The notes under the pieces are model-generated. The model made no database searches, had not been told where the DNA came from, and saw nothing but the letters and a program-made list of their open reading frames with translations. A program made the position numbers and the translations under genes. A stretch of DNA of 64,000 bases from Eledone cirrhosa (Eukaryota). The first letter of the stretch is position 1. Each line of letters starts with the position of its first letter. Positions 1,468 through 27,547 of the stretch are shown in pieces. The stretch is taken from the NCBI GenBank assembly GCA_964016885.1, contig OZ024743.1, positions 78,120,001-78,184,000 of the forward strand, read 5' to 3'.

Positions 1468-3559
1468 GTAAGTATGTCTTTGTTATATTCTTCAATGTCT
1501 CATAACATATGGCTGTCGATAGAATAAAGTACCAGTAATGCATTGAGTAATTGCTGGCCTTGTGCCAAAAGTAGAAACAATTATTATATTACTGTAATGC
1601 ATTAAGTTATACATATTATAGAGCCCTTTAGAGGGGTGGGGGGACACAATATTAATTTATTATACATATCATGAGGCCTGTTTGGTGGGAGTGCAATGTT
1701 TAGGTGTATTATTGTATTACTGTAATGTATTAAGTTATACATTACATGGGGCCCTTTTAAGGGGCAACATTTAGCTGTGTAGTGACCTACATTCCGCGGG
1801 CTCATATACATTCTCCATGCGTTATTTGGCTCAGCCCAGCCAATGACCGCCAGTGGAGGAGAATGTATCTCTACGCGCCCTGAGGGAAAAATTCCCGCGT
1901 CAGCTCAAAAAAATCTCTCTCTTGCAGCTTGACTATGGTAAGGTAAAGATCACTTATTCTCTAGCTCTGTAAGCACAAACAACATGTAACGGTGAGATTT
2001 GCACTTTGGCCTGTCGGCCTTCCTTGGGCCTGGCACAATGCCACATTCCTTTTGTAACCCTTTTATGTTTAACATCAACTATACAACTAAACAAACATTA
2101 CTTTGTGCTACAACAAATAAACATACATTTCATCTCCTATTTCTGCTGTTGACATCATTATTATGTTACTCGTGTCCCAGTTACTTTTATATACATAACT
2201 GCTAAAGGTGTATTAAAGTATAATTGTAAAATATTTAGTTATACATATCACAGGGCCCTTTTGGGGAACAATGTTTTATGGCTTCATGCCCAGCTTCCTG
2301 TTATCAACCGTTTTTAGTCATCACCTCTTACAAACTGCAGAGATATGGTGTACCTATTCAAAACCAAGAAATGGAATGAGATGGTTGGGTCATGTGTTGA
2401 AGAAGGATGAATATGGCTGATTGACAGGAATAAGGTAAATGAATGTGAAAGGAAATGGAAGAAGCAAACAAACATGAAAGACATGGCTTAATATGATAGA
2501 AGAAAAAATGAAAACCAGGGAGTTGGTGAAGGGGAGGTGCAGAAGATAAGACAAAATGGAGTAGCTTCTCATTGTGCCTAAAAGGTTAACCCTTGATTTA
2601 GTTTGGAAAATGTTCTTAAAATACTTGTTGTTGTATGAGGTATTGAGATGAACTGAAGAATATCGAAGATTTAATATCTTTATATTGATAACATTTTTGT
2701 GTTTTATTGTACTATGATATTTTTCACCATGCTGACATGTATGTGTATATGTGTGTGCATGTGTATATAAATATAAGCGCACAAGCGCAGACGCACTTAG
2801 AAAAATACACACTCACAGATATACATTCACACAAATACACATACATTCACACAAACTCACACATACATTCTCACAAACACACACATACATTTAGACAAAC
2901 ACACATATTCACATACACAGCATAGCAAATTGAACGCCAGCTGATGTTTTGCTATAATTTTTCACCATCTCCTTCCTTTTACATGCTTGTATGGGTTAGA
3001 CAGGTTGTTACGTTATGAAGCCAGGCAGGTTATGTGACAACGTATTTCTCTTACAATCTAATTTTGGCTGGGTTTTCTACAGCTGGATGCCCTTCCTAAT
3101 GCTAGCCACATTACAATGTGTACTGGGAGCTTATTTTTATGGCACCAGCACCTTACATGGTGGACTGGATGCTTTTTGTCAAGGCACATGTGAGGGAAAT
3201 TTAGTAAACAGAAATTGTGTGTAAGTCAGTTAGAGAGATTATTCTCGAATATTAGAGAGAAAAATCTGGTTCGTGTGTGCCTTTAACAGAATCCACTCAG
3301 TTGCAAGCATTCAGGTCTGAAGATGTTCCTCCAACCTTCTCTCCAGTCTTGCTGACACTAAAAAGGGTCATGGCTGCTTTCCTTCTTCCTATGACTAAGT
3401 GATAAAAAAAATGTTGGAATCAATCCAATTTAGTATTGTTTTCTCTCTTATGTAATTGGTCTTGTAAAATAATTTTTTTAAAACTCAATATTTAGCTCTT
3501 AACATTCTGAACAATTAGCCCAGTAATAAAGATAAGACAATGTAAACATTTAAATTAAC

Positions 3560-3745
3560 CTTCTTCTTCTTGTTGAGAGGGTTGTGGAGAAGAGTCTTCA
3601 AACACTCCTTCCAGCAGGTCCTGTCAGAAACAATCGTCTCCAACTGATCCAACTAGATCCCCAAGTAAGACCAGCCAAGCTCATAGATGTTATCCAACCA
3701 TCTTGCTCAGAGTCTACCACTGGGTCTCCTGCCGGTTGGTTTTTC
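3560..3745 (-). mobile_element. RTE-type LINE 3' coding remnant
   Basis: Minus strand reads PTGRRPSGR..RWLDNI..DRTCW; (GAA)n tail. Confidence 0.55.
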
Positions 3746-4394
3746 TCGTATATAAGATGTTAAGAGATAAAAGCCTCTGGTAGTTCAATAGAATGAGTAC
3801 CAGTAATATACTGTTTTATTTTATCTCCAAATCTATGAAAATGTTCTTGTGTCTAATCAAAAGATATCAACATCCGATGAATTAAATGAGATATTTTCTT
3901 TTTCTTCAAAAAAGATATATTGTTAATAATACACTATATGTGTGTGTATGTATGTGTTTATGTTGGGTTCCTGGTATGTCCTGTAACTTAGCAGCTAGAA
4001 AAAACAAGCATCAATAAAATAATTACTGGGGTTATCATAGGTGGTCAATATGGCAGGGTTGTCAGAACATTAGATATTTTTTCTAGGTCTCTGTTTTCAG
4101 TTCAAACCCTACTGAGGTTCACTTTGCCTTTCATCCTTTAGGGGTTGATAAAGAAAGTACCAGTTCGGTGCTGGTGCAGCCCTCTCTCCTTCCAGGTTCC
4201 CACATCCTGGATGATCTACTGCAGAGCTTCTCAAAAAAGGTCCAGGGGGCACTGGGGCCTAAGGGGTGGTTAAGGGTAGAGGTAAAGATGATATAATACT
4301 ATATTAAATATCAAATTATACATATTATATATAAATATAGTAAAATAAAAAATTATATTTATTTATACATAGTATATATTATATTATTTACTCA

Positions 4395-7300
4395 GTGACA
4401 ATGCCAAAGATAAAGACAAATTCACCTCATGCTGCCGGACGAGAATGCAAGGACTCCTCTTTATTTCGGCCGCGGATGGCCAACATAACCCTCCCCCCTG
4501 CGCCCCACCGTTCCCACCCTCCAAACGCAATCCAAAACTTCAGAGTTGGTACCATGAATATAGGTACCTTAAAAGGTCGCTCTAACGAGGTTGTAGAAAT
4601 GCTTGAACGTAAGGAGGTCGATGTTTGCTGTATTCAAGAGAACAGGTGGAGGGGTGGATCTGCCAGATTCATTGTGGGTAAAAAACGATGCTATAAGCTT
4701 TCTGGGTAGGAAATGACAATGGGCTGGTTGGAGTAGGAATCATGGTAGCAGAAAAGTGGGCAGATAAGATAATAGACGTAAATAGAGTGAACAACAGAAT
4801 AATTAAAATAAGACTTGTCCTCAATAGAACTACTGTGACAATCACATCTGCACATGTACCACAATCCGGACTGCCTGGCGTTATAAAAGACAGATTCTAT
4901 GAGATGTTAATGCTCACTACCTTCCAAATAACCGACAGTGACTACATAGTTATCGCTGGCGACCTAAATGGTCACGTTGGACAACATTGTGATGGCTATG
5001 ACCGAATCCATGGAGGCTATGGTTTTGGTACTAGAAATGAGGAAGGCTCCAGAATCCTGGAATTCTGTGATGCAAATAACCTAACTATCTGTAACACTAA
5101 CTTCAAAAAACGAGACAATCACTTGATCACCTATAGATCAGGGGAACACACCAGCCAGGTAGATTATATCCTTACCAGAAGACGTGACAGAGTGTCTGTT
5201 GTAAACACTAAATCCCTCCCCCATGAAGAATGCACCTATCAACATAGACTCATAATTAGCGACCTCATAGTCAGGGCGAGACGTACAACAGAAGAGGACT
5301 ATCCTCAGGAGAAAAATATGGAAGCTAAAGGACCCCACAGCCAGTAATAAATTTAAAAGCATATTACTTGATGCTTTTGATAGTAAGGAAGAGCAATTAG
5401 AGTCGTACAATATAGAGGAACAGTGGGGATTCCTGAAAGCTAACCTGCTGAAGGCGACAGATGAAATCTGTGGCTGGAGCAGACCTATAGGCAGGAGGAG
5501 AGTAACTTGGTGGTGGAACAGTAAGGTGGAGGGATCAATCAAGGCCAAAAAGCAGGCTTGGGAAGCATGGCGGGATGGGGAAGTAGAGAAGACTATCAAG
5601 TGGCCAGGAGGGAAGCTAGGAGATAAGTGTACTTCACAAGAAGGGAAGCAGAGGAAAGAAAGTTCAAGCATGTTCTACAACACGAGGACCCAAAACGTGA
5701 GGTGTTCAGGATTGCTAGGCAATGTGTCAAGGAAAACCGTGATATTGTCGGGGAGAAGTGTGTCCTTAATAATGATGGTGTACTTGCCATCACTGACGCT
5801 GATAAGAAGGTAGCTTGGAAGTGTCACTACGAAAGGCTACTAAATGAGGAGAATAATTGGGAGAAAGACAGTCTCCCCCATATCGATCCAATAGAGGGAC
5901 CAGCAGTGCAAGTTGAAGGTAGTATAATAAGTAAGGCGATCAAAGACATGAAGACAGGCAAGGCGGCTGGGCCTTCGGAAATAGTTGCTGAAATGATGAA
6001 AGCATCTGGAACGGTGGGACACACTATGGTCACCCGGATAGTAAACCAAGTCATACAGAATTGGGTCGTTCCGAAGGACTGGCGTAGCAGCAGCATCATC
6101 ATTAACTGCTACAAGGGTAAAGGAGATGCCCTAGATATGGGAAACTATAGAGGCATTAAATTAATTGACCAGGTCATGAAGGTCACAGAAAAAGTAATAA
6201 CGCAACTAATCAGAGAGCGAATTGATCTAGATGAAATGCAGTTCGGGTTTGTGTCAGGTAAAAGTACAACAGACGCTCTTTTCATTGTACGACAACTACA
6301 GGAGAAGTACCTAGCTAAAAGTAAACCCCTATACTTAGCTTTTGTTGACTTGGAGAAAGCCTTTGACAGAGTACCCCGCTCGATTATCTGGTGGGACCTT
6401 AGAAAACTAGGGGTTGATGAATGGCTTGTGAGAGCTATACAAGCCATGTATAAAGAAACAGTCAGCAAGGTTAGAATTAACAACGAATATAGTGAAGAGT
6501 TTAGCGTAAAAGTTGGTGTTCATCCGTCCTTAGCCCCCTACTATTTATTATTGCCCTTCAGGCTATAACAGAGGAGTTCAAGACCGGCTGCCCATGGTAA
6601 CTTCTATACGCAGATGATCTAACGCTCATAGCTGAATCAATGGCTGAACTAGAGAAGAAATTCCAAACATGGCCTAGAATCAAAAGGCTTTAAAATTAAC
6701 CTGTCTAAGACTAAAGTTCTAGTTTGTAGGAAGGAAAATAGGGCACTGGTCCCATCTGGGAAATGGCCATGCTCAGTGTGTAGGAAAGGAGTAGGCAGAA
6801 ACTCCATTTTATGTCCCAAATGCAAAGTATGGGTGCATAAAAGATGTAGTGGGATCACAGGTAAGCTAACTAAGAATATAGATTTTATATGTGGCTGGTG
6901 CTCAGGTGCAATAACTAGTAGCAAGTGCCCACAGAATACTAGCTCATTCCATTGCACAGATGGTTCTATAGAAATAGTGGACACCTTCCGTTACCTGGGT
7001 GATAAAATCAGCAGTGGTGGAGGGTGCTCTGAAAGTACAGTAGCTAGAGTCAGAACGGGATGGAAAAAGTTCAAAGAGCTTATACCACTATTGGAAGCTA
7101 AAGGGTTCTCTCTAAAAATGAAAGGCAGGCTGTATGATGCCTGCATACGAACAGTAATGTTACATGGCAGTGAGACCTGGGCATTGTGTGCAGAGGATAT
7201 ACGCAGACTGGAGAGGAACGAAGCTTGCATGCTCCGCTGGATGTGTAATAGTAATATACGTGAACGGCAAAGCATAAATGAACTAAGGGAGAAATTAGAA

Positions 7301-7945
7301 ATAAGAGGGATCAGATGTTGTTTACTCGAGAGAAGGCTACGTTGGTATGGTCACGTGATGTGCATGAAAGACGACAGCTGTATAAAAAAGTGCAGGACGA
7401 TAAAAATAGACGGTAGCCACGGAGTAGGCAGACCCAGAAAAACCTGGGACGACTTGATAAATTCCGACATCACACACTTGCACCTCAAAAAGACAATGTC
7501 ACTGGACCAAGATCTTTGGTGCTACACAGTAATACAGAAGACCCGCTTTGGCTAAGTACAAAGCGAAACCTACAGTCAGTAGCCACCTCTAACAAAAATA
7601 CACCCCCGTCCCACCACCCCCACCCCATCCACACCACCCCTTTCGATGTAAAGTTATGTTGGTACCACAACATCCAGTCCGAAATAAATGAAGTCGTGTA
7701 GGTGTCACAAAAAAAAAAAACACACAGTCCACGCTGTAATGTGGCCGTGTAGGTAACACGGTAAAAACCTCTCAGTCCACACTGTAAATGTGGTTGGTGT
7801 TAGGAAGGGCATCCAGCCGTAGAAAACCCGCCAGGCAGTCCTATACGAGCATACAACCAATCTTGCCTCAAGTGGGAAAATTCCCGTCCAAACCCATGCA
7901 AGCGTGGAAGATGGACGTTAAACGATGATGATGATGATGATGATA
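4395..7945 (+). mobile_element. RTE-clade LINE, near full length, frameshifted
   Basis: APE endonuclease (GTMNIGTL, CCIQE, GDLNGHVG, QVDYIL); RT (NYRGIKL, QFGF, FVDLEKAFDRV, YADD); C-terminal LHGSETW and RGRP-like motifs; (GAT)n tail. Confidence 0.95.
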
Positions 7946-8652
7946 TAAATTAATGATTTTATCTATTACTAGCAGTGTATCCCGGCATTGCACAGCTAAG
8001 AACATTGGTAATAGCACCTCCAATGAGAGACGTTTATTTGCGAGTGCCTGTTAAAAACTCACGAAAATATACTGACAGGAAACTTGTTTTATTTGGAGCA
8101 AATTAAGAAGTTGAAAGTACAGTTTAGCTGTCTACGTGCATTGTTCATAGGAATATTGTTGAGCCCCTTCTTTTCATACTACTCTGTTTTGGCCTATTGG
8201 AGTAAATGTGAAAGAGAAAGTCACAGGTTAAGTTGGAAGAAGGTTCTAGTGTCATAGCAGTAAGGCGTAGGCTACTTACCTCAAAAGTTCATTCGCACAT
8301 TTTCCACTAAGTTACTCTTTCTCTCTATCCCTCTCGGTGCAGTCCCTTGCGAATTTCTGCCCGATTCACATGTCTGCTTTATACGGCTTTTGGAGGAAGG
8401 AGTGACAAGCAGTACATTGTTCGGTATTATTACGAAAAGGTGTAGCGGAGAATTCCGCGTGACCTAACAGCTCGGGAGGAAACTGCTTATCGAAGATTCA
8501 TTCGGCATCGTTCTTGTCAACGCTGCGTTTAGTTGGTATTTGTTAGTCTACAGTTAGATGAATGGCGCACAGAGGGTTAATGTTTATTGGCAAGAAGTTT
8601 TTTGAATAATAAAAGACGGGTTAAAGAGACCTACAATGTATCTGTGTGTGTG

Positions 8653-8689
<37 letters not shown>

Positions 8690-8691
<2 letters not shown>

Positions 8692-9070
8692 TGATTAATG
8701 TTCAGAGCCATCCTCAGCATTCTCATGTAGCACTCATTCACCATCAGAGTGAGTTTCTTGGTCAGTGTCCAAGTCTCAGACCCGTACAGCAGCACAGACT
8801 CCACTACTGCTACAAAGAGTGACACAGAGGAGACTGAGGTTAGCTGGACATGCCCACCAACATCCAGAGTTGACACTGCACTCAGTGCTCCTTGGGAGCC
8901 CCTGCATGGACACACTCGAAGAGGAAGACCGAGGTTAACATATGTTGATACCCTAAGGACAGACACCGGTCTGTTGGAGACGCAGGACGTTGTAGCGATA
9001 ATGAGGGACAGAGACCGCTGGAGAGAACTCGTCCATGGATCTCGGGAATTTTACCCGCCTTAGATAGATA
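8690..9070. mobile_element. 5'-inverted RTE-type LINE 3' fragment
   Basis: 8690-8820 minus: FVAVVESVLLYGSETWTLT..YMRMLRMALNI; 8822-9063 plus: QRRLRLAGH..RRGRPRLTYVD..DRDRWR. Confidence 0.8.
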
Positions 9071-9142
9071 TATTTTTATGTGTATAGTTATATATATGTA
9101 TATGTGTATATATGTGTATATGTGTTTCTATATGTATGTATG

Positions 9143-9238
<96 letters not shown>

Positions 9239-9325
9239 TATATATATGTATATAATTATGAAGAGAGAAGGAACATTTAGATATAATTAGTAATAAAATG
9301 CATCATACCTAAACTGCTCCTAGAT

Positions 9326-9415
9326 TCCTCGACTACGTAGTTTCGTGGCATAATCAAAAACAATACATCATAAAGATATAGAGTCCCTGCGAGGTCTGCC
9401 AACTTATCAAGAGGA
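9326..9415 (-). ncRNA. Type I hammerhead ribozyme, inverted copy
   Basis: Reverse complement of 9738-9827. Confidence 0.72.
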
Positions 9416-9737
9416 TACCTCATTTTACTAGTCTCAAGAACGCGTCTACACGACGTGAGAAAGAATCCCAAAAGGTGGAGGGGGAGATAGTCACGCGATA
9501 TAACGGTCGAGAAACAGTCGATATAACGGTCGAGAAACATACTTCTTGCCCCCTTCACCACCTCTTCTACGGCTTCGATATGAATACCCCCTCCGCCTCT
9601 GTGGTATTTTATTCGGGGTTATAAGAGGCTTAGCTCTGTTTCTCGACCGTTATATCGCGTGACTATCTCCCCCTCCGCCTTTTGGGATTCTTTCTCACGT
9701 CGTGTAGACGTGTTCTTGAGACTAGTAAAATGAGGTA

Positions 9738-9827
9738 TCCTCTTGATAAGTTGGCAAACCTCGCAGGGACTCTATATCTTTATGATGTATTGTTTTTGTT
9801 TATGCCACGAAACTACGTAGTCGAGGA
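9738..9827 (+). ncRNA. Type I hammerhead ribozyme, U3-A8 core variant
   Basis: tcctc-TTGATAA-gttggca..tgccac-GAAA-ctacgtag-TC-gagga. Confidence 0.75.
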
Positions 9828-10332
9828 ATCTAGGAGCAGTTTAGGTATGATGCATTTTATTACTAATTATATCTAAATGTTCCTTCTCTCTTCATAATGT
9901 ATTTTTAACTCTGATACTGGTTCAGTCTAGTTCAACCGGATTGGTCTGTCCCAGTCATTCATTGAGCAACATCGGTGAGGTTGGCACCCTTAACTCACGG
10001 TTGGGTGTGGATGCATTCATGTATATGTGTGTGTCCACATGTATCTGTGTGTTTCTAAATATATTGTTAATAACTCCCTCTCTGGTTGAGTAATCTTTGA
10101 AGTGTGGTGGCTGCTGGAAAGCTGCCATTACTCATACTTCTCTCCTCCTTCACCACCTCTTCTACGGCTTCGATATGAATACCCCCTCCGCCTCTGTGGT
10201 ATTTTATTCGGGGTTATAAGAGGCTTAGCTCTGTTTCTCGACCGTTATATCGCGTGACTATCTCCCCCTCCGCCTTTTGGGATTCTTTCTCACGTCGTGT
10301 AGACGCGTTCTTGAGACTAGTAAAATGAGGTA

Positions 10333-10422
10333 TCCTCTTGATAAGTTGGCAGACCTCGCAGGGACTCTATATCTTTATGATGTATTGTTTTTGTTTATGC
10401 CACGAAACTACGTAGTCGAGGA
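10333..10422 (+). ncRNA. Type I hammerhead ribozyme, second tandem copy
   Basis: Same motif 595 nt downstream. Confidence 0.75.
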
Positions 10423-11487
10423 ATCTAGGAGCAGTTTAGGTATGATGCATTTTATTACTAATTATATCTAAATGTTCCTTCTCTCTTCATAATGTATTTT
10501 TAACTCTGATACTGGTTCAGTCTAGTTCAACCGGATTGGTCTGTCCCAGTCATTCATTGAGCAACATCGGTGAGGTTGGCACCCTTAACTCACGGTTGGG
10601 TGTGGATGCATTCATGTATATGTGTGTGTCCGCATGTATCTGTGTGTTTCTAAATATATTATATATGTATATATATATATATATGTATGTATGTATATGT
10701 GTATATATGTGTGTGTATATGTATATATGTGTATATATATGTGTAATTCTATATATGTATATATATATATATATATGTGTGTGTGTGAATGTGGTGATGA
10801 TAATACGTCAGCAATGACGAGTTGGTCATAATGTCGTTTTGCAGACAAAAGACATACAGACAGATATTATAAGGGCGCGACAGAGATCGATAACCGGCGC
10901 CTAACACCCCTTTAACAACAGAAAATTGAAAAATAAAAGCTGCAGTTAATATCTTTAGACCACAAGGAATATATAAATGCAAGTTTGAAGTCAATTGGAG
11001 TAGAAATGTGGATTTGTATAGACTTTGCAAAAATGAGGACACACACAGACAACTACAGTTTTATATATATGTATAGATATATTATTTACAATTTGTGTAT
11101 AGGCTGTGAGTGGGGTAGCAAAAGGTTTGAGAACCTATGATCTACTAGATCAAAGAATGGAGGATCAAGAGGCTGTTTGTGTCTGCTCATCACTGTACAA
11201 GCACCTAAAACCTTCAGTAAAAGCATGGTTCATACTACCAAGTCATACTTGTTTGTAAGTGGTGGCTGTAGTTATAATGAAATAAACCCCTGAATGCAAT
11301 GTCCCAGTATAACCACAGAGGTAAAAGAATAAAAAAAATGTAACAAGAATAAAATTCAAAAGACTATTAAGCTTTAGTGATATAAGCAGATATATTAAAT
11401 TTTTCTTATCTAAAATTAGTTGTAGCATTAGTAGTTAGTATTGGATTATTTTGTGAGAAGACAAATCAACAAAGATTAATCTTGTAA

Positions 11488-12543
11488 CCCTTTAGCATTT
11501 AAACTGTCCATATCCGGCTAGAATTCTCTCCCCCCTTTCATCAACCTGGTCGAAAACGGCCCCTCATATCGACGTTAAGGTATTCTCAAAATAAATAATA
11601 TCATCAAAATCTCATAGATTCGATATTATGAAAGATAATTATGTAAATCTAGCAGAAAAACCACCTGAAGGATGGTTTTCTGCTAGCATGTGTAGTGTGC
11701 ATATTGATATAATATGCAGGTATATATACATGTAGCTATGATACATCAAATAAAATCGTAATTGACAATATACACAGAAATTGAACGAAGACTGCGTTAC
11801 ACTGACTTATGTAATCAGGAACGTAATCCATGGTACATTAAAAAAAAGACAATATTCGGGCTAAGAAGGCCAAACTCTCCATGTACCGTTCGCTCTCCGA
11901 CAGTTTCGTGGTCGTGCCTTTGGCATTGGAGACTTCTGGTGTTCTTCGCCCTAGGGCTACCTCCCTATTCACCACCATAGGCGCTGAGCTAGCCAGCCGC
12001 AGGTGTGAGCCTCGCGAGTTGGAATGGCTGTTCCAGCGCATCTCCCTTGCCATCTTCCGGGGAAACGCCTTCTCCATCCTGTCCGTTGGGGCTGTGAGGA
12101 GGCCAGCACGTGGGACCCCATTTGCTCACCATACGGATTAATAGGCAAAGTTATAAACTATTGTAAATAAATGTTTGTGAATCAACGCTAGTATGACGGA
12201 AAAAAAATTATATATTAACTGCATTAGGAGAAAATTAATGACGGAAATATATGAATGTTTATTTAAGTGATCGCTAACCTGAAGTGTTCACATTTGAAAA
12301 TTTTAAAGAAGTGAATTATTAAATAAGCAATAAAATATATTTAATCAACAGCCACGAAATTTAGTAGATAAATTATGTAATATTCATTCATTATTTATTC
12401 AAAATAATCCAACTTATTTTACAAACGGGATAAAAAATTATATTCTGGATGCAGTCCCGCACTCCTTTCATTATTATAGTTAAGATAAAGCCTTTACCAA
12501 AAAAATACTATAGTAAATATAGAGTAATGTAAATGCTAAATGG
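11488..12543. mobile_element. piggyBac-like non-autonomous TIR element (shorter relative at about 13465-13682)
   Basis: taa-CCCTTTAGCATTTA ... TAAATGCTAAATGG-ttaa termini. Confidence 0.55.
11880..12175 (+). mobile_element. CRE-clade LINE 3' fragment
   Basis: GC-rich island; FVVVPLALETSG...WLFQRISLAIFRGNAFSIL resembles the CRE restriction-like endonuclease C-terminus. Confidence 0.7.
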
Positions 12544-13219
12544 TTAAGCTGAAAGTATGTTTTAGGTCAGTTGATACTTTAAATTTAAGTTATGTACAAA
12601 TATTAGTAGGGTTTGTTGTAGTGCAGGCTCAAGAATTAGGTTATGATTAGTTTAAAGTTTTTTTTTAACCAGATATTTTATATAGAGTTTAGAAATGAAT
12701 AATTAATTCTTTCATGACTGTGTTTCTAATGAAATACACTCTATTTTAATTAGTTAATTTATGAAGAATTTTGAGGGATTTACTAAAATTATTAATTATT
12801 TCATTACTAAGAGTGTAACTTAATGCAATGGAAGATATGGAAGATTTTAGTTTAAATTGGAAACCTTTAAAATGACTGATTTTATTTCATAGAACCAGAG
12901 TGGGGTTGGTAACTAAAGGGTTAACTCTTAATATCTTACACCACATGAAACCACATTAACAAGGCATTATTGAAAAGTACAAAACAACACTATGAATGCA
13001 TCACATAAAAAACTAGTCTTTATTAGCATATTTTTGCAATGTCTGTAAATGTACTATATACTTTTTGAATTAGCAAGACATTCTTAAAATCACAAAACAA
13101 CATTATAACTATATCACATTAAAAATTAGAGTCCCCCTCCTCCTTTGCCCACCTATAAGTGTGCAAAAGCTACATTTAAACACGATAAATTGACAGCTCA
13201 ATGTAATAATGACACAGTT

Positions 13220-13460
13220 ATCATGGATCTGGATCAAGGGAGGCTTCAATAATTATCTTGGTGTAAATGAAGGAAAAGGGATTCAGCATGATCAATGAAA
13301 AACAAGATCAGGAAAGAATATTATAGACGTGTTAAAATGGTCCAGAATAGAATTGAAGCTATAAACTCCATAGCTGTGCCTGTTGTCCAGTATAGCCTTA
13401 ATCAATTGGAGTTTGAATGAACTCCACCGTATGGACATAAAACTAGGAAACTGCTGACAT
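13220..13460 (+). mobile_element. R4/Dong-like LINE decayed fragment
   Basis: Broken reading RKEYYRRVK..NRIEAINSIAVPVVQYS..INWS..KTRKLLT. Confidence 0.55.
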
Positions 13461-13849
13461 TATCTCTTTAGCAATTAAAACCAGCCGTGTCTGGTCAGAA
13501 TTCTCCCACCTTTTTCTGTTCAAACTAGCTGTAAATGGCTATTCATATATATGTAAGATATTGCTCTCAAAATAAATATCAAAATCTTGTAGATTCGATA
13601 TTATGTGAGATAATTATGTGAGATAAAGTGTTTACCATGGAAATATAATAATAAATATAGAGTAATATAAATGCTAAAGGGTTAACATATTCGCCTGTTT
13701 ATATTTAAGCTAAAATATAAGTTATCACCTTTTTTGTCTTTTCAACTTCAAAATATCTACTTTACTGAACATTTCAATATCGTCACGTCATTTATTGTCA
13801 ATGTTTAAATCTCTATGTACCTTTAAATATGTAATTACAATAACTATAG

Positions 13850-14045
13850 CAGTAAAGTATCGGACAACATGCTTTTCAGCATAGTTACGACCCTTTATGT
13901 TCTGTGTTCAAATCCCAAAGTTAGCTTTGCCTTTCATCCTTAGAGGGTCGATAAAATAAAGTACCAGTAACTAACTGGGATCGATTTAATCGACTTTCTC
14001 CTTCCCACAAACATTGTTGGCCTTGTGCCTGAATTAGAAACCAAT
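13850..14045 (+). mobile_element. tRNA-derived SINE (related copies at about 4050-4170, 19020-19130, 48870-49080, 55855-56070, 62060-62125)
   Basis: GTTCAAATCC B-box followed by the recurrent core ttgcctttcatcc..gtcgataaaataaagtaccagt. Confidence 0.75.
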
Positions 14046-15879
14046 AATTATATCCTCTATAGAGAATAATCTATTATTTTTCTACTGGTTTTCATAGACT
14101 AATAGCATCTATATTTATTAGGTTTTTTCCATACGCTGACGTGTATGTGTGTTAGTGCATATGCATACATTTATATGTATGAGTATATAAATATAAATAC
14201 GCAAACACAGACATGCTTACAAAAAAAACACACTCACAGACATACATTCACACAAACACACACACATACATTTACAGAAACACACATACACTTACACACA
14301 GCGTAGTTTTTTCACCATCCCGTTCCTTCTTTTTACACACACATACATTCACACATGCAGCAGACATAAAGAGAGAGGAGTAGTATGAGGTAGTCAAACT
14401 ACTCCTCTCTATTTACATGTTGAGACAGAATCGCAGAAATTTATATATAGATTTCATTACTGTAGAGCTGACAAGTATAACTCTATGTCAATGTAACAAT
14501 ATATATTTTCAAAACAAATGTATATATATATATATCTCACTTGACTTTATTTATTGTAAGTGAAACAAGTAAAATATGATTTAATTCCAACAATAACCTT
14601 GTTTCTTTATTGAATATATATAATTCAAGATTTCAAAAAAGGAAACAGTCACAAAAATACAATTACACAAAGTCTTATTAATTTCATGCTTACAGGAAAA
14701 GGATGAAGAATGATTCAACATATTGGATGTTATTCCTTCATCAAGAACAAGTAAAGTTATGAGAAAGAGTAAGCTGGAAGATTGAAAACATATGTATGTG
14801 TGTACTGGAGCCACAAAAAAGGTCCCAGTACATGATTTTAAGTTGTCAGCACTAGGAAGGATATCTAGCTGTAGAAAACCAAACACAAAACATAACCTAT
14901 GAGCAAGATGTGGCCCCCTAATCTGTCGAGCCTCATAATGTGATAACCCATCTCCCCCATGCAGGCATGGGAAACAGATATTAAACAGTGAAAGCTGATG
15001 ATAATGATATATGGATATATGTATGTGTATATAACATTGTAATAAAGGACATGTGATATATATGATATATATATGTGTGTGTGTTTCAGTTCAATAATCC
15101 ATGCTGTTTGATCTAAACAATCAATTAATTATAGTGTAATCCAACATAAGCACTCCACGTCAATGGTATCTATAAAGATATTACATATATAGTATCAAAC
15201 GGATTGTCAATATTTAGTAAGAAAAGACGATTTTACATTTTCTCCTTCAGATTATTGTCTTTTATCTTACCCATTATGCACATTTCAAAGGCATTAAAAT
15301 GTCATTGGGTAATAGTTATTTAATGCATGTTCGCCAGTGAGGTGCTGAAAATGTAAACAGAGTTTTGATTTTGGGTTTTTGATATGTTCACTGTTGAAGA
15401 GATGTTGTTCATTTGGGATATATATAACAACCTACTACAGGACATGACTATAATTGAGAGATGATAGATACATATCAATAGATATTGTATATGCATATTG
15501 CCTATATTTTACCTTTTTCTCTACCAAAATACAGTCGCTGTATCTTCTATTAACTAAATGTGTGCAGTCTGAACAGCTGATTGCAGTTGAATTTCTGCAA
15601 TTCAGCAGATTCATTGAGTGAGCTAGACGTTGGCTGGAGAACGTTGACTTAATACCAGCGATCTTCATCACTTTTATTTTATATATATATATATATGAGA
15701 GAGAGATAATAAGAGTGAAAAATAACCCTCTATTATTTTGGTTAGGTGTGTCGAGCTTCATACATTAGTATAGAAATAATTGTAAAAATTAAAGATGGAA
15801 TTTGAATAACAACCTTTTTTTTCCCTTTTTGCATTAATTATAAATATATATATGTGTGTATGTATGTGTGTGTGTGTGT

Positions 15880-15938
<59 letters not shown>

Positions 15939-16346
15939 TGCGGTGCTGAGACCAATGGCACCACTGATCATGTCCGTACTCGTTACATGGGGAGATGTAG
16001 AGTGGCATTACAGTTGGGATTTTACACATCTATATGTGTATATATATATTATATATAGATCTATAAACTCAAAATAGTCTTTTACAATTAAATAACTCAA
16101 AGAAAGGAATATTTCCGAGCCGTATAATACAAATGAATATATGATAGGGATAAACACTGATACAAGTATACATGTGTTCGCATTGCAAATGACCAAGTTA
16201 GCTAGATTGAAAAATACTAATTAAAATAATACGGTTTGTCTGTCTCGATTTAAAATAATAAATCAATAAAAACAAACCTATATTGGCAATAGCCGTGATA
16301 CCCGGACAGATTTTAAATTATATATATATGTATATATATATCTGTG

Positions 16347-16378
<32 letters not shown>

Positions 16379-16387
16379 TATACATAC

Positions 16388-16502
<115 letters not shown>

Positions 16503-16547
16503 GTGACGAAACATAAGTCAATTGCATGAACGCATAATCCTTTATTT

Positions 16548-16603
16548 ACTGCTATATATATTTCGATGATAGCCATTGAATGGCTATGACCTCATCAGGC
16601 AGT
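16548..16603 (-). ncRNA. Type I hammerhead ribozyme
   Basis: Minus: actgc-CTGATGA-ggtcatagccattcaatggctatcatc-GAAA-tatata-TA-gcagt. Confidence 0.75.
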
Positions 16604-16819
16604 TAGTCAGTTCTTAGATATGCCAGCTCTGTGTGTATAGCGTTGATGGTATCAGAGCCTTGGGACATATGAGCTTGTTAGGAATATTTTGATGTTGTCA
16701 GCAGGAATAGTCTTGATTCTCATTGGTCAGTTTGTAGATGGTAGTAGGTTGGTATTTGACCTCAAAGAGGCAGGTGGTTCTGTAAGGTTCAAACCGTCAG
16801 GCAAGATGACAATAGTTCC

Positions 16820-16852
<33 letters not shown>

Positions 16853-16887
16853 TTACAATAATCAAAGTTCAGTTTAAATCATTTATT

Positions 16888-16934
16888 TGCTTACAATTGT
16901 TTCCTCCAAGCCGAGGTTTGGATTCTTCGGACCA
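16888..16934 (-). ncRNA. Degenerate hammerhead-like motif (CCGAAGA core)
   Basis: Minus: CCGAAGA-atccaa..ttggag-GAAA-caattg-TA; weak stem I; same family as 55002-55048. Confidence 0.4.
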
Positions 16935-17520
16935 CCCTGGTGATATTTGAATTTACCAGGGATTCAGTCATACAATGACCCGGAACTTACCGGGAGTCTT
17001 ATATAGTAATAAGACCCTTATTAGTAATAAGACCCTTATACATATAATTGATTTTGAAGTCTGTCTCTTCTTATAGATTGTTCAGGTGTGGCACTCCATA
17101 TTGGATTGTAATCATCATGATATGAACTCCTTTAGTACTTCTTAATAGACTGCACTCTAATTTATAGATAAGAAACCTAATTTAATTTATATATGAGATG
17201 GGAGTTTATGTATTGCTGGATGGCCAGACTAGTGTCTTTATATGAGAGAATTGATCTCCGGACCACCCTGGAGATATTTAAATTTGCCAAGGATTCAGAC
17301 ATACAATGACCCAGAGCTTACCGGGAGTCATATATAATAATAAGACCATGCCAGGTTCTGCGGGTGGACTACACTTACAAAGAACATTGATTTGGAGGTT
17401 TGACTCTTCTTATAGAATGTTCAGATATGACACTCCTTAATAGAAGGTAATCATCCTGATATATACACCTTTAGTACTTCTTAATAGACTACACTGTAAC
17501 CTATAGATAAGTAACCTAAT
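16926..17520. repeat. Imperfect tandem duplication, period about 331 bp
   Basis: ggaccaccctgg..gacccggaacttaccgggagtc..tttagtacttcttaatagact occurs twice. Confidence 0.75.
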
Positions 17521-18127
17521 CTAGAAATTAGTTATAACATCATATGATAGGCACTTATTTGAAACACCATTAATGTAATTTAGGATAATAAATTTAACTA
17601 AGAAAATCAGCTAGTTACCTCCCCTTACGCATTAACTCCCCTTGGTCACACACACACTTCTGGAATATAATATCATCTCACAAAACTAAACACCATGATC
17701 TATTAATTAAGAATCGACAAGATATGGTTTATAACTTGGTTCTATGCTGAACCATCGTGGATTGTATGATAGACCTGTAGTCTATATATTGCGTTTCATG
17801 GATTATGTGAGTGGTGGTGTGCGCGAAGACAGTGGTACTGTTTTGCCTATGTTATAATATGTTTTATAATATGTTTGATATTTTTGATATTTTGGTGTTT
17901 ATCTACATTCGGGATTGTATATCATACAGGTGTATGCGAAAAAATGATTTAACAATACAGCCCACATAATACTATCGATTGCCTGCTTTAACTGCCTGAT
18001 CCTACAATTAACAATCTACCGCACTCTAATCCTGTATAAATAAGGCACGCGTGCATGCTACACGTGAGATTGTTTCATACACTGCCTACTCTAAACTTTC
18101 CTCTTGCTTTATCTTCATAAACTGCCA

Positions 18128-18209
18128 ATGTTTTTGTTTTTGTTTTTGTTTTTGTTTTTGTTTTTGTTTTTGTTTTTGTTTTAGTTTTACTTTTACTTTT
18201 ACTTTTATT

Positions 18210-18246
<37 letters not shown>

Positions 18247-18340
18247 TTATTTTTTTTAGTTTTAGTTTTAGTTTTAGTTTTAGTTTTATTTTTATTTTTA
18301 TTTTTATTTTTATTTTTATTTTTATTTTTATTTTTATTTT
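18128..18340. repeat. Compound T-rich microsatellite
   Basis: (TTTTTG)n, (TTTTAC)n, Tn, (TTTTAG)n, (TTTTTA)n in series. Confidence 0.9.
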
Positions 18341-18352
18341 TAACCTTTATAT

Positions 18353-18397
18353 GTAAATTGCCATGCTATATCATTATGATATAGCATGGCAATTTAC
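18353..18397. repeat. 45-bp palindrome
   Basis: gtaaattgccatgctatatcat-t-atgatatagcatggcaatttac. Confidence 0.9.
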
Positions 18398-18573
18398 TAT
18401 AATCTCTATATAACTGCTCTGTAAAACAACCGATGTTATTACATTGAGCTATTTATCTTACTGGTAATAAGATAGTAATGAATGACTATCTTTCACTATT
18501 TGGGGTTTGTATAAAAAATATATAACCATAAAAGGTTTTATTATATACATAACCATAAATAGTATCCTTAATA

Positions 18574-18614
<41 letters not shown>

Positions 18615-18669
18615 GTGAGGTTTTTTTTACAAATTGAAAAATAACCGAGGTGTCCTACACGACTGAAAG

Positions 18670-18972
18670 TATAAAGAAAAAGAGATGAAATCGAAAATGC
18701 AACTGGAGTCTTATTTTTTAAAAAAATATATATATTTATTTGGTTCCTTTACCGGTTTCGCAGTTCTTCTGCTTTTCAAAAGTAGACTTGAGATGGAGGG
18801 TCTGTGGTTTTTCTCACATCAGATGTGAGAAAAACCACAGACCCTCCATCTCAACTCTACTTTTGAAAAGCAGAAGAACTGCGAAACCGGTAAAGGAACC
18901 AAATAAATATATATATTTTTAAAAAAAATAAGACTCCAGTTGCATTTTCGATTTCATCTCTTTTTCTTTATA
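18670..18972. repeat. Near-perfect 303-bp palindrome beside (TA)n
   Basis: Centre 18821 (ctcacatc-a-gatgtgag); one mismatch noticed. Confidence 0.92.
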
Positions 18973-19173
18973 TATATATATATATATATATAGGAGGTGA
19001 GTTTTATTTTAGTACAATAAAGCAATGCAAATATCGGATAAGTAGCACTCTACAGTTTGTAGGACTGGAGTCTAAATAATTGTTTTTACCTTTGGCACAA
19101 GGCCAGCAATTACCCAGTGCATTACTGGAGTATAAATAATATAAGATCAAAAGATGGTTAAAAGAGTTCCAAG

Positions 19174-19244
19174 TATTTTATTATGCGCATTTCAAAAACA
19201 AATATCATCATGAGATGATATCTGCGTTTTCATCAGATAAAATA
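19174..19244 (-). ncRNA. Type I hammerhead ribozyme, mirror copy
   Basis: Reverse complement of 19363-19433. Confidence 0.82.
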
Positions 19245-19362
19245 GGGATACATGATATGAAGGTTAAAAAATACTTGTGAATAGTGAAGTTTTAAATCAA
19301 CATATGTTGATTTAAAACTTCACTATTCACAAGTGTTTTTTAACCTTCATATCATGTATCCC

Positions 19363-19433
19363 TATTTTATCTGATGAAAACGCAGATATCATCTCATGAT
19401 GATATTTGTTTTTGAAATGCGCATAATAAAATA
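19363..19433 (+). ncRNA. Type I hammerhead ribozyme
   Basis: tattttat-CTGATGA-aaacgcagatatcatc..gatgatatttgttttt-GAAA-tgcgca-TA-ataaaata. Confidence 0.85.
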
Positions 19434-19612
19434 CTTGGAACTCTTTTAACCATCTTTTGATCTTATATTATATATATATATGGAAAGTTATATTTAAAAT
19501 TGTTGGGTTACAACTAGTAAATATTTATAACTGATATAAAAGCACTCGACAAATATTTGGAGTATATTTACAATATTAAATAAATGGAAACTATATTTAT
19601 AAAACCATATTT

Positions 19613-19676
19613 ATTTCATTATATATATTTCGGGGATATCATATTAACAATATGCTATGCCTTCCTCAGACAAAAT
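19613..19676 (-). ncRNA. Type I hammerhead ribozyme within an inverted repeat (arms 19569-19651 and 19679-19761)
   Basis: Minus: attttgt-CTGAGGA-aggcatagcatat..atatgatatcccc-GAAA-tatata-TA-atgaaat. Confidence 0.7.
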
Positions 19677-19922
19677 ACATTGTTAATATGATATCCCCGA
19701 AATATATATAATGAAATAAATATGGTTTTATAAATATAGTTTCCATTTATTTAATATTGTATATATATATATATATATATATGTACATATAAGTGTAGTG
19801 TTTGTACCAGAGTTTTCAAGTCACTGGCTGGACTAAAAAGTCACACTCGTTCAGCGCATCGGTAGGGGTTCTCCTACATGCATATAAAGTAGTGGCCATA
19901 CTCGAAAACGAGTTGGCAGCCA

Positions 19923-20109
<187 letters not shown>

Positions 20110-20114
20110 TATGT

Positions 20115-20597
20115 ATATCATCATCACCGTTTTACGTCCGTTCTTCCACGCTAGCATGGGTTAGACGGGTTGTCCTGTTGTGGGCAGTGTCTGGTCGGCT
20201 GACCATGCCTTGCTCATACAGGAACTGATTTTGGCTTGCTTTCTACAGCTGGATGCCCTTCCTAACACCAACCTCATTTACAGTGAGTGCTGGGTGCTTT
20301 TTTCCGTGGCGCCTACACGTCCACTTTACAGTGTGGGTTGGGTGCTTTTTTACCGTGGCACCTCCACGACCACTTTGCAGTGGAAGGGTGTGGGGGTATA
20401 TTGTCTGTATGCATCAGCTTGTACCCATGGGAGGTCGGGTACTCTGTATTACTGCGTGACGCCAGAGGTCACGATCGTGTGTCATTGACTTTGAGAGGTG
20501 TAATTGGGTAAGGTCGGCTTTTATCACCTCATCCCAGGTCTTCTTGGGTCTCCCCACTCCGCGGCTTCCATTGACTTCTAGTGCTCTGCACCTTTTT
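20115..20597 (-). mobile_element. 5'-truncated RTE LINE 3' end
   Basis: Reverse complement of the last ~500 bp of RTE 42082-44740, including the (GAT)n tail. Confidence 0.85.
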
Positions 20598-20648
20598 ATG
20601 TATATGTGTATACATTTATGTGTGTGTGTGTGTGTATATATATAAATA

Positions 20649-20731
<83 letters not shown>

Positions 20732-20776
20732 GTGTATACATGTATGTATGTGTGTGTGTGTATATATGTATATATA

Positions 20777-20868
<92 letters not shown>

Positions 20869-20899
20869 ACCCATTTCCAACCACGCGCCACGCCATTTT

Positions 20900-20943
<44 letters not shown>

Positions 20944-20974
20944 GTATATACACGTATGTGTTTGTGTGTATATG

Positions 20975-21010
<36 letters not shown>

Positions 21011-21041
21011 TATATATATATATATATATATATAAATATAT

Positions 21042-21153
21042 ATAGGAACCAGTAAGACCCCGACGGCTGAGCTCAAGCCGTTTCGACGGCTAATTCTGGA
21101 ATTAGCCGTCGAAACGGCTTGAGCTCAGCCGTCGGGGTCTTACTGGTTCCTAT
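21042..21153. repeat. 112-bp palindrome made from the 3' half of an HHR
   Basis: Centre aattc-tg-gaatt; right arm gccgtc-GAAAC-ggcttgagctcagcc-GTC-gggg. Confidence 0.85.
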
Positions 21154-21252
21154 TACCCACTCTACTACTCTAAGTATTGAGTACTTTGGTGCGTTATGGT
21201 CCACCGGGTTCCTTACCACATTTCCTTCGTTATAAATATATATATATATATA

Positions 21253-23105
21253 GGCATACGTCAAAACGGTCGGTCGCAAAAGTGAAACAAATTTTTGACG
21301 ACAGTTACGTACGTCATTACTTTCAATTTGGATTGGGAATTTGTTTGTTTTTTTACAACAGGTCTCAATAGTGAAAGTGAATTTTGTTGATGGTGTTAAT
21401 TAGTATTGCGTGTACGTGATAATTTTTTTAATTCTTTTTTTGTGTATTGTGTGTACGTAAAAAAATTTTTTAAATAATGACATTGTGTTGAAATAAATAA
21501 ATATTGAAAATCCTTATTTAAATAGTGACATTGTGTGTTGAAATAAATAAATATCGAAAATCCTTATTACACCCTATAAATAGCTGAAATACAGTTGATC
21601 ATCTCGCCAAACTTGTTGGCACCAACTCTCTGTCGCCAAAGAAATTAAGGTAGGGTCATAAGAAGGACAGAGAATGATAAGGGATTTGGGTCAGAGGGGC
21701 AGCTTGTGGTCAGAAAGGCAGATTGGCGTCAGAAGAGCTGGGAACATTTTTTTTTTTTTTAAACTTAGCACCGAAGGGCTGGATTGTAATACAGTGTCAC
21801 ATCAAATATGGCTGGACGAGTGTATGGTCGCGTTACCTTAGTTGAAGATATTTTGGATACCAATGCTATTCTTAATCGTTTTGAAACAGTGTATACACTG
21901 TTCCCGGCGATACACGGTGACACGTTGTGTATGTTACAGTGGTTGGCGAGTCGGCGTCTGTTGGCGAACAGTGTGAATTGTCCTGTCTGCAATGAGGCGT
22001 GCACATTGCAAAGAAATTCTGAGGGGATTGATAAATGGAGATGGCGATGCGCCCGCGATAAATTTAGTCAATCGGTGCGACGGAATTCTTTATTTTATCG
22101 AAGCCGTGTTCGACTCGAACACCTTATTGGCATTATCTATATGTGGTGCTACGATCATGCCCAAACTGAGATGATGAGAGAAACAGGACTTAGCAAGCCG
22201 ACAATTATAGACTGGTACAATTTCCTTAGAGAAATTTGTGAGCAGTATTTGGAGGCGAATCCTCAACAGCTTGGAGGATTCGATGAGAATGGTTCGTCGA
22301 TCATTGTAGAGATCAACGAATCAAAATACTTTCATAGAAAGTATCATCGTGGCCAGTGGAGACAAGGCCACTGGGTCTTCGGCGCCGTAGAACGCCATTT
22401 GGACGCTGCTGCCTCATCGAAGTCCAAGATCGAAGCCGTGAGACTCTTGTCCCCATCATACAGCAATGGATTTTGCCCGGAAGCCACATCATGTCTGATG
22501 GTTGGGCTTCCTATTCGGATATTGAAGACATTCAAGGTGGCATTTACCTCCATGATGTTGTTGTGCACCTACGGAACTTTGTAGATCCTGAAGACCCTAA
22601 TGTGCACACACAACTCAGAGAACACATGGAGCCGTGCAAAGAAAAAGTTTCGTCGCCAGCATGGGACAAGCGATGCTTTATTCCCCTCATATCTAGCTGA
22701 ATTTCTTTGGCGGTAGAGAGTTGGTGCCAACAAGTTTGGCGAGATGATCAACTGTATTTCAGCTATTTATAGTGTGTAATAAGGATTTTCATAAGGTACG
22801 TCAATTTATATTTTATATGCAACAAACGTACAACTATGTAGTTATTTTTAAAAAAAAAATGTATTTCTTTCAACACACAATGTCATTATTTAAAAAAAAA
22901 TTTCCGTACACACAATACACAAAAAAATAAAAAAATATATATATCACGTACACGCAATACTAATTAACACCATCAACAAAATTCACTTTCATTATTGAGA
23001 CCTGTTGTAAAAAAACAAACAAATTCGCAATCCAAATTGAAAGTAATGACGTACGTAACTGTCGTCAAAAATTTGTTTCACTTTTGCGACCGGCCGTTTT
23101 GACGT

Positions 23106-23110
<5 letters not shown>
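21253..23110 (+). mobile_element. Merlin (IS1595/ISXO2-like) DNA transposon, defective
   Basis: Long TIRs starting GGCATACGTCAAAACGG; transposase 21808 to about 22780 with CPVC..WRC zinc ribbon, VEINES (D to N), WVFGAVER, IMSDGWASY, NFVDP..HTQ; frameshifts; (TA)n flanks. Confidence 0.9.
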
Positions 23111-23136
<26 letters not shown>

Positions 23137-23142
<6 letters not shown>

Positions 23143-26924: not shown

Positions 26925-26934
26925 AATTGAATAG

Positions 26935-27002
26935 AAAATGGGGAATCGAACTCACAACCTCATGATTGTGAATCCAACTCTCTAACCACTCAGCCACGTG
27001 CC
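26935..27002 (-). mobile_element. tRNA-derived SINE head
   Basis: Minus: GGCACGTGGCTGAGTGGTTAGAG (A box) ... GAGTTCGATTCC (B box); similar heads at 45221 and 56211. Confidence 0.7.
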
Positions 27003-27033
27003 TATATATACATATATATATATAGAAGCACAT

Positions 27034-27319: not shown

Positions 27320-27510
27320 TTAATCTACCCGAGTGTGGAGAGATCATAAACAATTCATATAGTTAATTAATGATGCAAAACAATAGGAAAACAGAGTCAA
27401 AATAAGACATTGAAAAACAATGAAAAATTAAACAAACAACATGTTATTCATATTAATATTGATTTATGCATCTTCATAAAAAAAATATATCTACATATAC
27501 ATATATACAC

Positions 27511-27547
<37 letters not shown>

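What the first reader, a model, noticed from the sequence alone, without database searches (positions are those of the whole stretch)
9254..10660. ORF-less 595-nt HHR tandem: candidate retrozyme or circular-RNA replicon
Seen: a non-coding unit repeats with period 595 (9538-10132, then 10133-10660, about 1.9 copies). Each copy has one HHR; an inverted partial copy precedes them and (TA)n tracts bound the whole. Cleavage after GUC at 9822 and 10417 would release a unit-length 595-nt RNA. Established: non-autonomous retrozymes make HHR-processed circular RNAs. Inference: this was produced by rolling reverse transcription of a small (circular) RNA by a Naiad-type RT in trans, since it shares the inverted+direct+direct architecture of the autonomous element at 33067-37670. 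Possibly an undescribed family.
Basis: partly seen in the sequence, partly recalled or inferred. Interest (0 to 1): 0.85.

Follow-up and report, generated by a model that had tools for sequence, protein, structure and literature searches.

The report
Hammerhead retrozyme with Hydra-type Penelope signals
This is one insertion of an abundant, protein-less jumping repeat of a known kind (an animal retrozyme) that carries a predicted self-cutting RNA, and its ends and two small RNA stems suggest it is likely pasted into TA repeats by a borrowed Penelope-type enzyme, possibly reading round an RNA circle.

Summary
Observation confirmed. There is a 595-nt period (6 mismatches in 528), a 263-nt inverted arm, (TA)n flanks, no ORF over 80 codons, and three type I hammerhead motifs with a U3-A8 core, 59-nt helix II and palindromic helix III. 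Contigs of 4 of 4 laid runs show the head-to-tail joint, and two show (TA)n junctions at the same two ends. So it is an abundant family, not an artefact.

The partner is probably not a Naiad. The autonomous element at 33064-37671 is Hydra-clade. It has no DNA similarity to the unit but shares the hammerhead architecture and a bulged CUC..NN-GAG stem just after each of the two ends.

Both arms read through the cut site, so the template was a circle or an uncut multimer, not a cut linear monomer; these two are not separated here. Cleavage, expression and circles are untested, and in host read-through the inverted arm is predicted to block the first hammerhead.

The class is published (non-LTR retrozymes as Penelope derivatives). 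The scan already noted what looks like this 591/595-bp family on other DNA of this genome. New member of a known kind.

The parts
9064..9254 (.). left (TA)n-rich target tract
9255..9517 (-). inverted arm, 263 nt, equal to 10231-10493; its outer end is end site A
9322..9420 (-). hammerhead motif in the inverted arm (core 9410-9331)
   Evidence: outer limits mapped from the fold
9496..9539 (.). inversion junction: 21-nt duplication of the arm's inner end and a 2-nt overlap with the direct arm
9538..10065 (+). 5'-truncated direct copy, 528 nt
9733..9831 (+). hammerhead 1 (type I, U3-A8), predicted cut after 9822
9909..9966 (+). bulged stem A in copy 1 (CUC-helix-NN-GAG)
10066..10660 (+). full 595-nt ORF-less unit; 10660 is end site B
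10073..10091 (+). bulged stem B, just after the head-to-tail joint (its CUC starts 9 nt after the end-B position 10065)
10328..10426 (+). hammerhead 2: helix I 5+4 bp, core 10338-10344, 59-nt helix II, GAAA at 10404, 3-bp helix III with ACGU loop, predicted cut after 10417
10504..10561 (+). bulged stem A, starting 11 nt after end site A (10493)
10661..10776 (.). right (TA)n-rich target tract
33064..37671 (-). context: Hydra-clade Penelope-like element (RT then GIY-YIG, one in-frame stop), with a long-helix-II hammerhead and the same twin stems; not the sequence parent
1468..39312 (+). context: probable intron between two consecutive SLC22-like transporter exons; the direct copies lie in its sense strand

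Best explanation
The locus is one insertion of an ORF-less 591-595-nt repeat family with a predicted hammerhead, likely copied into a (TA)n tract by the RT/GIY-YIG protein of a Hydra-clade Penelope-like element acting in trans, most likely from a re-ligated RNA circle. Shown: the unit, its two recurrent ends (10493 and 10660) joined to (TA)n, a bulged stem a few bases after each end, and arms of 263 and 1123 nt that cross the predicted cut site once and twice unchanged. Inferred: tandem loci are transcribed, and the hammerheads release a monomer (9823-10417) that contains both stems. The borrowed protein cuts TA repeats and primes cDNA from both DNA ends, one at each stem. The two cDNAs are then joined at their truncated ends, giving inverted+direct+direct. 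A cut linear monomer would give cDNAs of only 76 and 243 nt. My odds for the template are circle about 0.5, uncut multimer about 0.4, template jumping about 0.1.
For: Family status: 1503 and 1335 contigs laid in X1 and X2, over four identity bands. The head-to-tail joint appears in 4 of 4 runs (3 samples, 2 studies). One 621-nt contig in X4 wraps the whole unit (591 nt if 31-mers). (TA)n loose ends occur behind 10497 (X1 5 contigs, X2 5) and behind 10659 (X1 4, X2 3) (all). The same layout is in the Hydra element, with ends 113 nt apart against 167 here. Twin stems follow 4 of 4 ends (unit A and B, Hydra A and B). They are the only such stems in the unit, none lie on its minus strand, and 561 of 127,800 window positions (0.44%) have one 4-12 nt downstream. 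Both hammerheads have a long helix II (59 and 91 nt) and an ACGU-capped palindromic helix III. The unit folds on the hammerhead strand only (z -6.1 and -6.2 against 0.0 and -0.3). Of 24 common variant places, 5 break a predicted pair against 10.0 expected (P 0.012). Published: PLE protein extends both cut strands from two internal start sites that define the tail (PMC11167929); Hydra elements target (TA)n and carry hammerheads (PMC8557442); animal retrozymes form circles (PMC7229834) and derive from PLE ends (10.64898/2026.07.22.740005).
Against: No coding parent with sequence similarity was found: blastn and tblastn of the unit against the window gave only low-complexity or chance hits, so the Hydra link rests on structure. 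The stem descriptor came from earlier AI notes and was loosened after I saw these four sites. Stem A in the Hydra element is not in that segment's own minimum-energy fold. The active hammerhead fold has little predicted weight: helix I and III are near 0 in the whole unit and at most 0.32 and 0.02 in growing transcripts, though only 1.2 kcal/mol above the free fold locally. Only 1 of 9 Xenopus retrozyme dimers cut in vitro, and cleavage was dispensable for PAc insertion in vitro. A circle and a tandem array give the same contig. Unchecked notes report arrays of this unit up to about 5.8 kb, which could supply linear multimers. Two of 8 control stretches also reached z below -5.9, though on both strands.
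Confidence: 0.7

Rival explanations
1. Same element and same enzyme, but the template is an uncut linear multimeric transcript of a longer array; the hammerhead is a passenger or rarely cuts, and no circle is needed.
For: Uncleaved RNA was the dominant substrate for PAc in vitro. The active fold has weak predicted weight. Longer arrays of the unit are reported in unchecked notes.
Against: A locus primed at end B lacks stem B after its last unit, so linear copying would shorten arrays each round unless they regrow by recombination (inference). The three copies differ only by private changes in their shared 263 nt (2, 0 and 2), which fits one template but does not exclude a homogeneous array.
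Confidence: 0.35
2. The unit is only the pseudo-LTR or a deletion fragment of a longer coding Penelope-like element, tandem at this locus by accident.
For: Loose ends before 10232 in X1 (3 contigs) and X2 (1 contig, 255 nt) coincide with the inverted arm's inner end and could mark a parent (20 of 154 loose ends shown). Summed depth falls steeply over 10066-10165 in X1 and X2.
Against: The ORF-less head-to-tail joint is in 4 of 4 runs, carries depth 131 against about 110-620 along the body in X6, and closes an unbranched contig in X4. A coding ancestor may exist, but the unit moves on its own.
Confidence: 0.08
3. The driver is a Naiad (N-terminal endonuclease) element.
For: Naiads also target (TA)n and make tandem/inverted insertions; an Octopus Naiad is listed with a half core.
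Against: The cited neighbour is Hydra-clade. Canonical-order hammerheads are reported absent from Naiads. The twin stems are shared with the Hydra element.
Confidence: 0.07
4. A satellite that spreads by DNA-level recombination, with a fossil hammerhead.
For: Tandem layout; the preprint discusses local amplification by unequal crossover.
Against: Two fixed ends joined to (TA)n, the inverted arm with a slippage-like duplication, and one-strand folding point to reverse transcription of RNA.
Confidence: 0.04
5. An autonomous viroid-like circular RNA replicon that occasionally integrates.
For: Highly paired 595-nt circle predicted (-181 kcal/mol, 62% paired); a closed contig at depth 7.8 in a run labelled as another organism (X4).
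Against: Hammerhead in one polarity only and no structure on the minus strand. Integration marks are those of Penelope elements. The X4 sequence shares its differences with the main X6 variant, which trace DNA or RNA of a high-copy repeat would explain; the kind of both runs is not on record.
Confidence: 0.03

Closest known systems
Metazoan non-LTR retrozymes (Cervera and de la Pena 2020, PMC7229834: passages and sections 14 and 17 read; Li, Clavereau and Pollet 2026, 10.64898/2026.07.22.740005: parts 1-3 of 5 read, supplements not seen)
   Same: ORF-less tandem unit, one type I hammerhead per unit, GC under 45% (42.7%), highly self-paired predicted circle, PLE-related. 595 nt lies inside the 51-972 bp range of the preprint.
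   Different: Longer than the 170-400 nt circles tested; U3-A8 core with a 59-nt helix II; the parts read do not describe two fixed ends, an inverted arm or initiation stems, and the preprint sampled no mollusc. Circles and cleavage are not shown here.
Hydra-clade Penelope-like elements (Craig et al. 2021, PMC8557442: passages, section 11, supplement part 2 of 59 and searches read), e.g. Hydra-1_Obim
   Same: (TA)n target, partial tandem with an inverted 5'-truncated copy, one-sided tail, hammerhead near the 3' end with a palindromic helix III.
   Different: No ORF; tail of 167 nt against the 30-40 bp described. All 26 Hydra rows of File S2 have a C3-G8 core and loop 2 of 3-10 nt. 0 of 6 short unit motifs were found in the supplement.
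Poseidon_Ac of Anolis (Frangieh et al. 2024, PMC11167929: parts 1-2 of 4 read)
   Same: Two internal RT start sites define the tail; both cut strands are extended; AT-rich target.
   Different: Autonomous, another clade; its start sites lie in an AC-rich stem-loop inside the ORF.
U3-A8 hammerheads of Schistosoma Cercyon PLEs (Cervera and de la Pena 2014, PMC4209133: parts 1-2 of 4 read)
   Same: Same compensatory core change, in a PLE context; palindromic loop 3.
   Different: Those are minimal motifs, mostly single; here helix III has 3 bp and helix II is extended.
Non-autonomous Chlamys PLEs such as MRC1 (PMC8557442, passage read)
   Same: Non-coding PLE derivative forming pLTRs and head-to-tail insertions.
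   Different: Green algal; most Chlamys lack hammerheads; those resemble their autonomous partner at the 3' end, which is not shown here.

Membership tests
Non-LTR retrozyme | Tandem units with at least two consecutive complete type I hammerheads | tested here: met
   9733-9831 and 10328-10426
Non-LTR retrozyme | No protein-coding capacity | tested here: met
   Longest internal frame 80 codons; no Pfam hit; no tblastn hit under E 0.37 elsewhere in the window
Non-LTR retrozyme | Multi-copy family | tested here: met
   1503 and 1335 contigs in X1 and X2, many variants, independent (TA)n junctions; no true copy number
Non-LTR retrozyme | Highly self-paired monomer | tested here: met
   Circular fold z -6.05 against 60 shuffles; minus strand z 0.0; prediction only
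Non-LTR retrozyme | Self-cleavage | not testable with these tools
   Bench test needed; predicted active fold is weakly populated
Non-LTR retrozyme | Expressed as circular RNA | not testable with these tools
   Only contigs of unrecorded kind were laid; a circle and an array look alike
Type I hammerhead | Core N3-N8 pair, GAAA, NUH, three helices | tested here: met
   U3-A8 variant, GUC, helix I 5+4 bp, helix III 3 bp; 0 of 2000 shuffles; no Rfam hammerhead hit
Type I hammerhead | Loop I-loop II tertiary contact | not tested
   Helix II is extended; no contact was modelled
Penelope-like insertion | Partial tandem, inverted 5'-truncated copy, one-sided tail | tested here: met
   both ends recur
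Hydra clade (neighbour 33064-37671) | RWK, DKT, C-terminal GIY-YIG, CxCX5C linker, (TA)n, hammerhead | tested here: met
   by motifs, no tree built; Pfam gave no hit for either ORF
Hydra clade (the unit as its derivative) | Sequence homology to a Hydra 3' end | tested here: inconclusive
   None to the one intact Hydra end compared; shared structures only
Naiad clade (neighbour) | N-terminal GIY-YIG before RT | tested here: not met
   RT precedes EN
Viroid-like replicon | Ribozyme or structure in both polarities, RNA-RNA replication | tested here: not met
   No hammerhead and no excess folding on the unit's minus strand; replication itself untestable

The most novel reading that the evidence does not exclude
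A Hydra-clade Penelope enzyme recognises two bulged stems on a small hammerhead-made RNA circle and copies it from both ends of one TA-repeat break. That would name the driver clade and the cis signals for animal retrozymes and give a compact system to prove rolling-circle reverse transcription, proposed since 2014 and not shown in the papers read.
Probability: 0.4. Interest if true: 0.65.

Novelty: new member of a known kind. Interest (0 to 1): 0.42.

Why it matters
How animal retrozymes get back into the genome, and why Penelope elements insert as inverted-plus-tandem copies with a one-sided tail, are open questions. This window holds a non-coding passenger and an unrelated Hydra-clade element that share end geometry, hammerhead design and twin stems. 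The pair gives a direct test: mutate each stem and compare circular, cut and uncut templates. The variant core and long helix II also explain why Rfam misses the motif, so such families are probably undercounted. The class itself is known, and the scan has met this family before.

Tried and rejected
Rfam: no hit at gathering score in the window; at E up to 10 only low-complexity miRNA-type hits. A 24-nt hammerhead pattern gave 0 hits in metagenome, viral and prokaryote genome contigs. No whole genome is held for this window, so copy number, array lengths and a coding parent could not be searched. No RNA holder listed among 23 runs; this says nothing on expression. No raw reads were laid, so the shares of the two end types and any molecule ends at the cut site remain open. 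A 19-nt match between the unit and the Hydra ORF (E 0.077, opposite sense) and a TG-rich local alignment (4 of 300 shuffles as good) were rejected as chance or low complexity. The 5' fall in summed depth was not read as truncation, because the window copy differs most there and short contigs drop out. An RNA-editing reading of the G/A differences was left open: 6 of 8 paired sites lie opposite U (P 0.02), but direction is unknown and structure selection gives the same pattern. None of the 39 variant places lies in the catalytic core or helix III, but that is expected about one time in five by chance (my arithmetic). No promoter was identified. Sequence look-ups in earlier findings were blank although word look-ups found the family. 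Literature searches that found no report of this family, of a cephalopod retrozyme or of the twin stems.

Full report
Observation. The window is animal DNA rich in (TA)n; earlier notes call the genome octopus-type or cephalopod, which I did not test. The repeat is as described. 9538-10065 equals 10133-10660 with 6 mismatches in 528, and 9255-9517 is an inverted copy of 10231-10493 with 2 mismatches in 263. (TA)n-rich tracts bound both sides. The inversion junction holds a 21-nt duplication of the inverted arm's inner end. No internal frame exceeds 80 codons. The better register is a full unit, 10066-10660, preceded by a 5'-truncated copy.

The hammerhead. Rfam misses it. A descriptor finds it three times, and in 0 of 2000 shuffles. 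It is type I with a U3-A8 core, helix I of 5+4 bp, a 59-nt helix II, and a 3-bp helix III capped by a palindromic ACGU loop; the predicted cuts are after 9822 and 10417. U3-A8 is published for Schistosoma PLE hammerheads (PMC4209133). The active fold is 1.2 kcal/mol above the free fold locally, but helices I and III are near zero probability in the whole unit and low in growing transcripts. Cleavage may therefore need a dimer, tertiary contacts or protein, and is untested.

Is it a family? X1 and X2 (one sample) gave 1503 and 1335 contigs on the unit, X6 gave 35 and X4 gave 4. The head-to-tail joint appears in 4 of 4 runs. One X4 contig of 621 nt wraps the unit, which is 591 nt if the words are 31-mers. 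(TA)n loose ends recur behind 10497 and 10659, the two ends seen at this locus (20 of 154 loose ends were shown). This excludes an assembly artefact and shows an ORF-less unit with two preferred ends. It does not give a copy number, does not show RNA, and cannot tell a circle from an array. X1 may be related to the window's own source, so it is not fully independent.

RNA-level structure. The unit folds far below shuffles on the hammerhead strand only (z -6.05 and -6.2; minus strand 0.0 and -0.3). Two of 8 control stretches also scored below -5.9, on both strands. Of the 39 variant places I took the 24 with a share of about 0.24 or more in X1. Eight are unpaired, 11 keep the pair and 5 break it, against 10.0 expected (P 0.012). 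The fold was predicted from the window copy, so this test is partly circular.

The partner. The element at 33064-37671 has the same layout. Its RT precedes the GIY-YIG domain and it has RWK, DKT and CxCX5C, the Hydra-clade diagnostics (PMC8557442 section 11). It has one in-frame stop, so this copy is probably inactive. It shares no significant DNA or protein similarity with the unit and is not the parent. It does carry a hammerhead of the same design, with a 91-nt helix II and an ACGU-capped helix III. Published Hydra hammerheads have loop 2 of 3-10 nt and C3-G8 in 26 of 26 rows. Following a lead from earlier notes, I searched for a CUC-helix-NN-GAG stem. It starts 11 and 9 nt after the unit's two ends and 3 and 5 nt after the Hydra element's two ends, 4 of 4. 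The unit has no other such stem and its minus strand none; the background is 0.44% of positions for a 4-12 nt window.

Mechanism. Frangieh et al. showed that a Poseidon protein cuts AT-rich DNA, extends both strands and starts at two internal sites that define the tail (PMC11167929). Applied here by inference, one DNA end primes at end A and gives the 263-nt inverted arm; the other primes at end B and gives the 1123-nt direct arm (1.89 units); the truncated ends are then joined. A hammerhead-cut monomer contains both stems, but its 5' end lies 76 and 243 nt from the two starts. Both arms are longer and cross the cut site intact, so a cut linear monomer is excluded unless the enzyme jumps templates. 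A circle or an uncut multimer remains. For the circle: linear copying loses the last stem B each round, and retrozyme circles are shown in coral, mussel and axolotl (PMC7229834). For the multimer: uncut RNA served PAc in vitro, only 1 of 9 Xenopus dimers cut, and notes report longer arrays (unchecked).

This locus as a source. It lies in the sense strand of a probable 38-kb intron between consecutive SLC22-like exons (OCT-family residues 277-351 and 349-432; GT and AG in frame). Host transcription would read the inverted arm first, and that arm is predicted to pair with 97 of 99 letters of hammerhead 1. Monomer release here would need a start inside copy 1, and no promoter was identified.

Comparison and verdict. 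It works like a non-LTR retrozyme and meets the sequence criteria; cleavage and circular RNA could not be tested. The link of retrozymes to PLE ends is argued in a 2026 preprint (supplements not seen, no mollusc sampled). Searches found no report of this family or of the twin stems. The scan has already noted 591- and 595-bp U3-A8 units and several sister families in this genome with the same reading; these are unchecked notes, not support, and identity with my unit rests on length and core, not on an alignment. New member of a known kind; interest 0.42.

Noticed in passing
window 33064-37671 (-): Young Hydra-clade PLE with one in-frame stop at 35179-35181; its hammerhead (33336-33227, also 36946-36837 and 37517-37626) has a 91-nt helix II that a short-loop descriptor would miss.
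   Followed up: yes
window 1190-1467 and 39313-39545 (+): Two consecutive SLC22-like transporter exons separated by about 38 kb of transposon-filled intron.
   Followed up: yes
window 28511-31888: Nested inverted repeats around a Hydra-type GIY-YIG fragment (29958-30554, 32% identical to the neighbour's EN); another such fragment at 46387-47154.
   Followed up: partly
window 63617-63654 (+), 61874-61840 (-), 38218-38256 (+): Further hammerhead-like motifs with C3-G8 cores; the second lies in the direct repeat of another PLE (57395-61899).
   Followed up: no
run X6, joint 10651 to 10153: A more divergent subfamily (depth 36.8) that appears to replace or lack the unit's 5' 87 nt; letters between not known.
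   Followed up: no
window 10231-10232: The inverted arm's inner end coincides with loose ends in X1 (3 contigs) and X2 (1): a recurrent RT stop at the base of a long hairpin, an RNA start, or the edge of homology to a parent.
   Followed up: partly
run X4: The unit closes into one unbranched contig at depth 7.8 in a run labelled as another organism and shares its differences with the main X6 variant; trace carry-over or diet is the plain reading.
   Followed up: partly
window 9547-9551: Three of the six differences between the direct copies cluster within 5 nt beside the inversion junction.
   Followed up: no
window 22992-26951 (-): Frames that look like a broken Helitron Rep-helicase with a 69-bp coding repeat (recognised from recall, not searched).
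   Followed up: no
window 18670-18972, 19131-19476, 31923-32579: Near-perfect hairpin insertions between (TA)n tracts, possibly short fold-back PLE ends.
   Followed up: no
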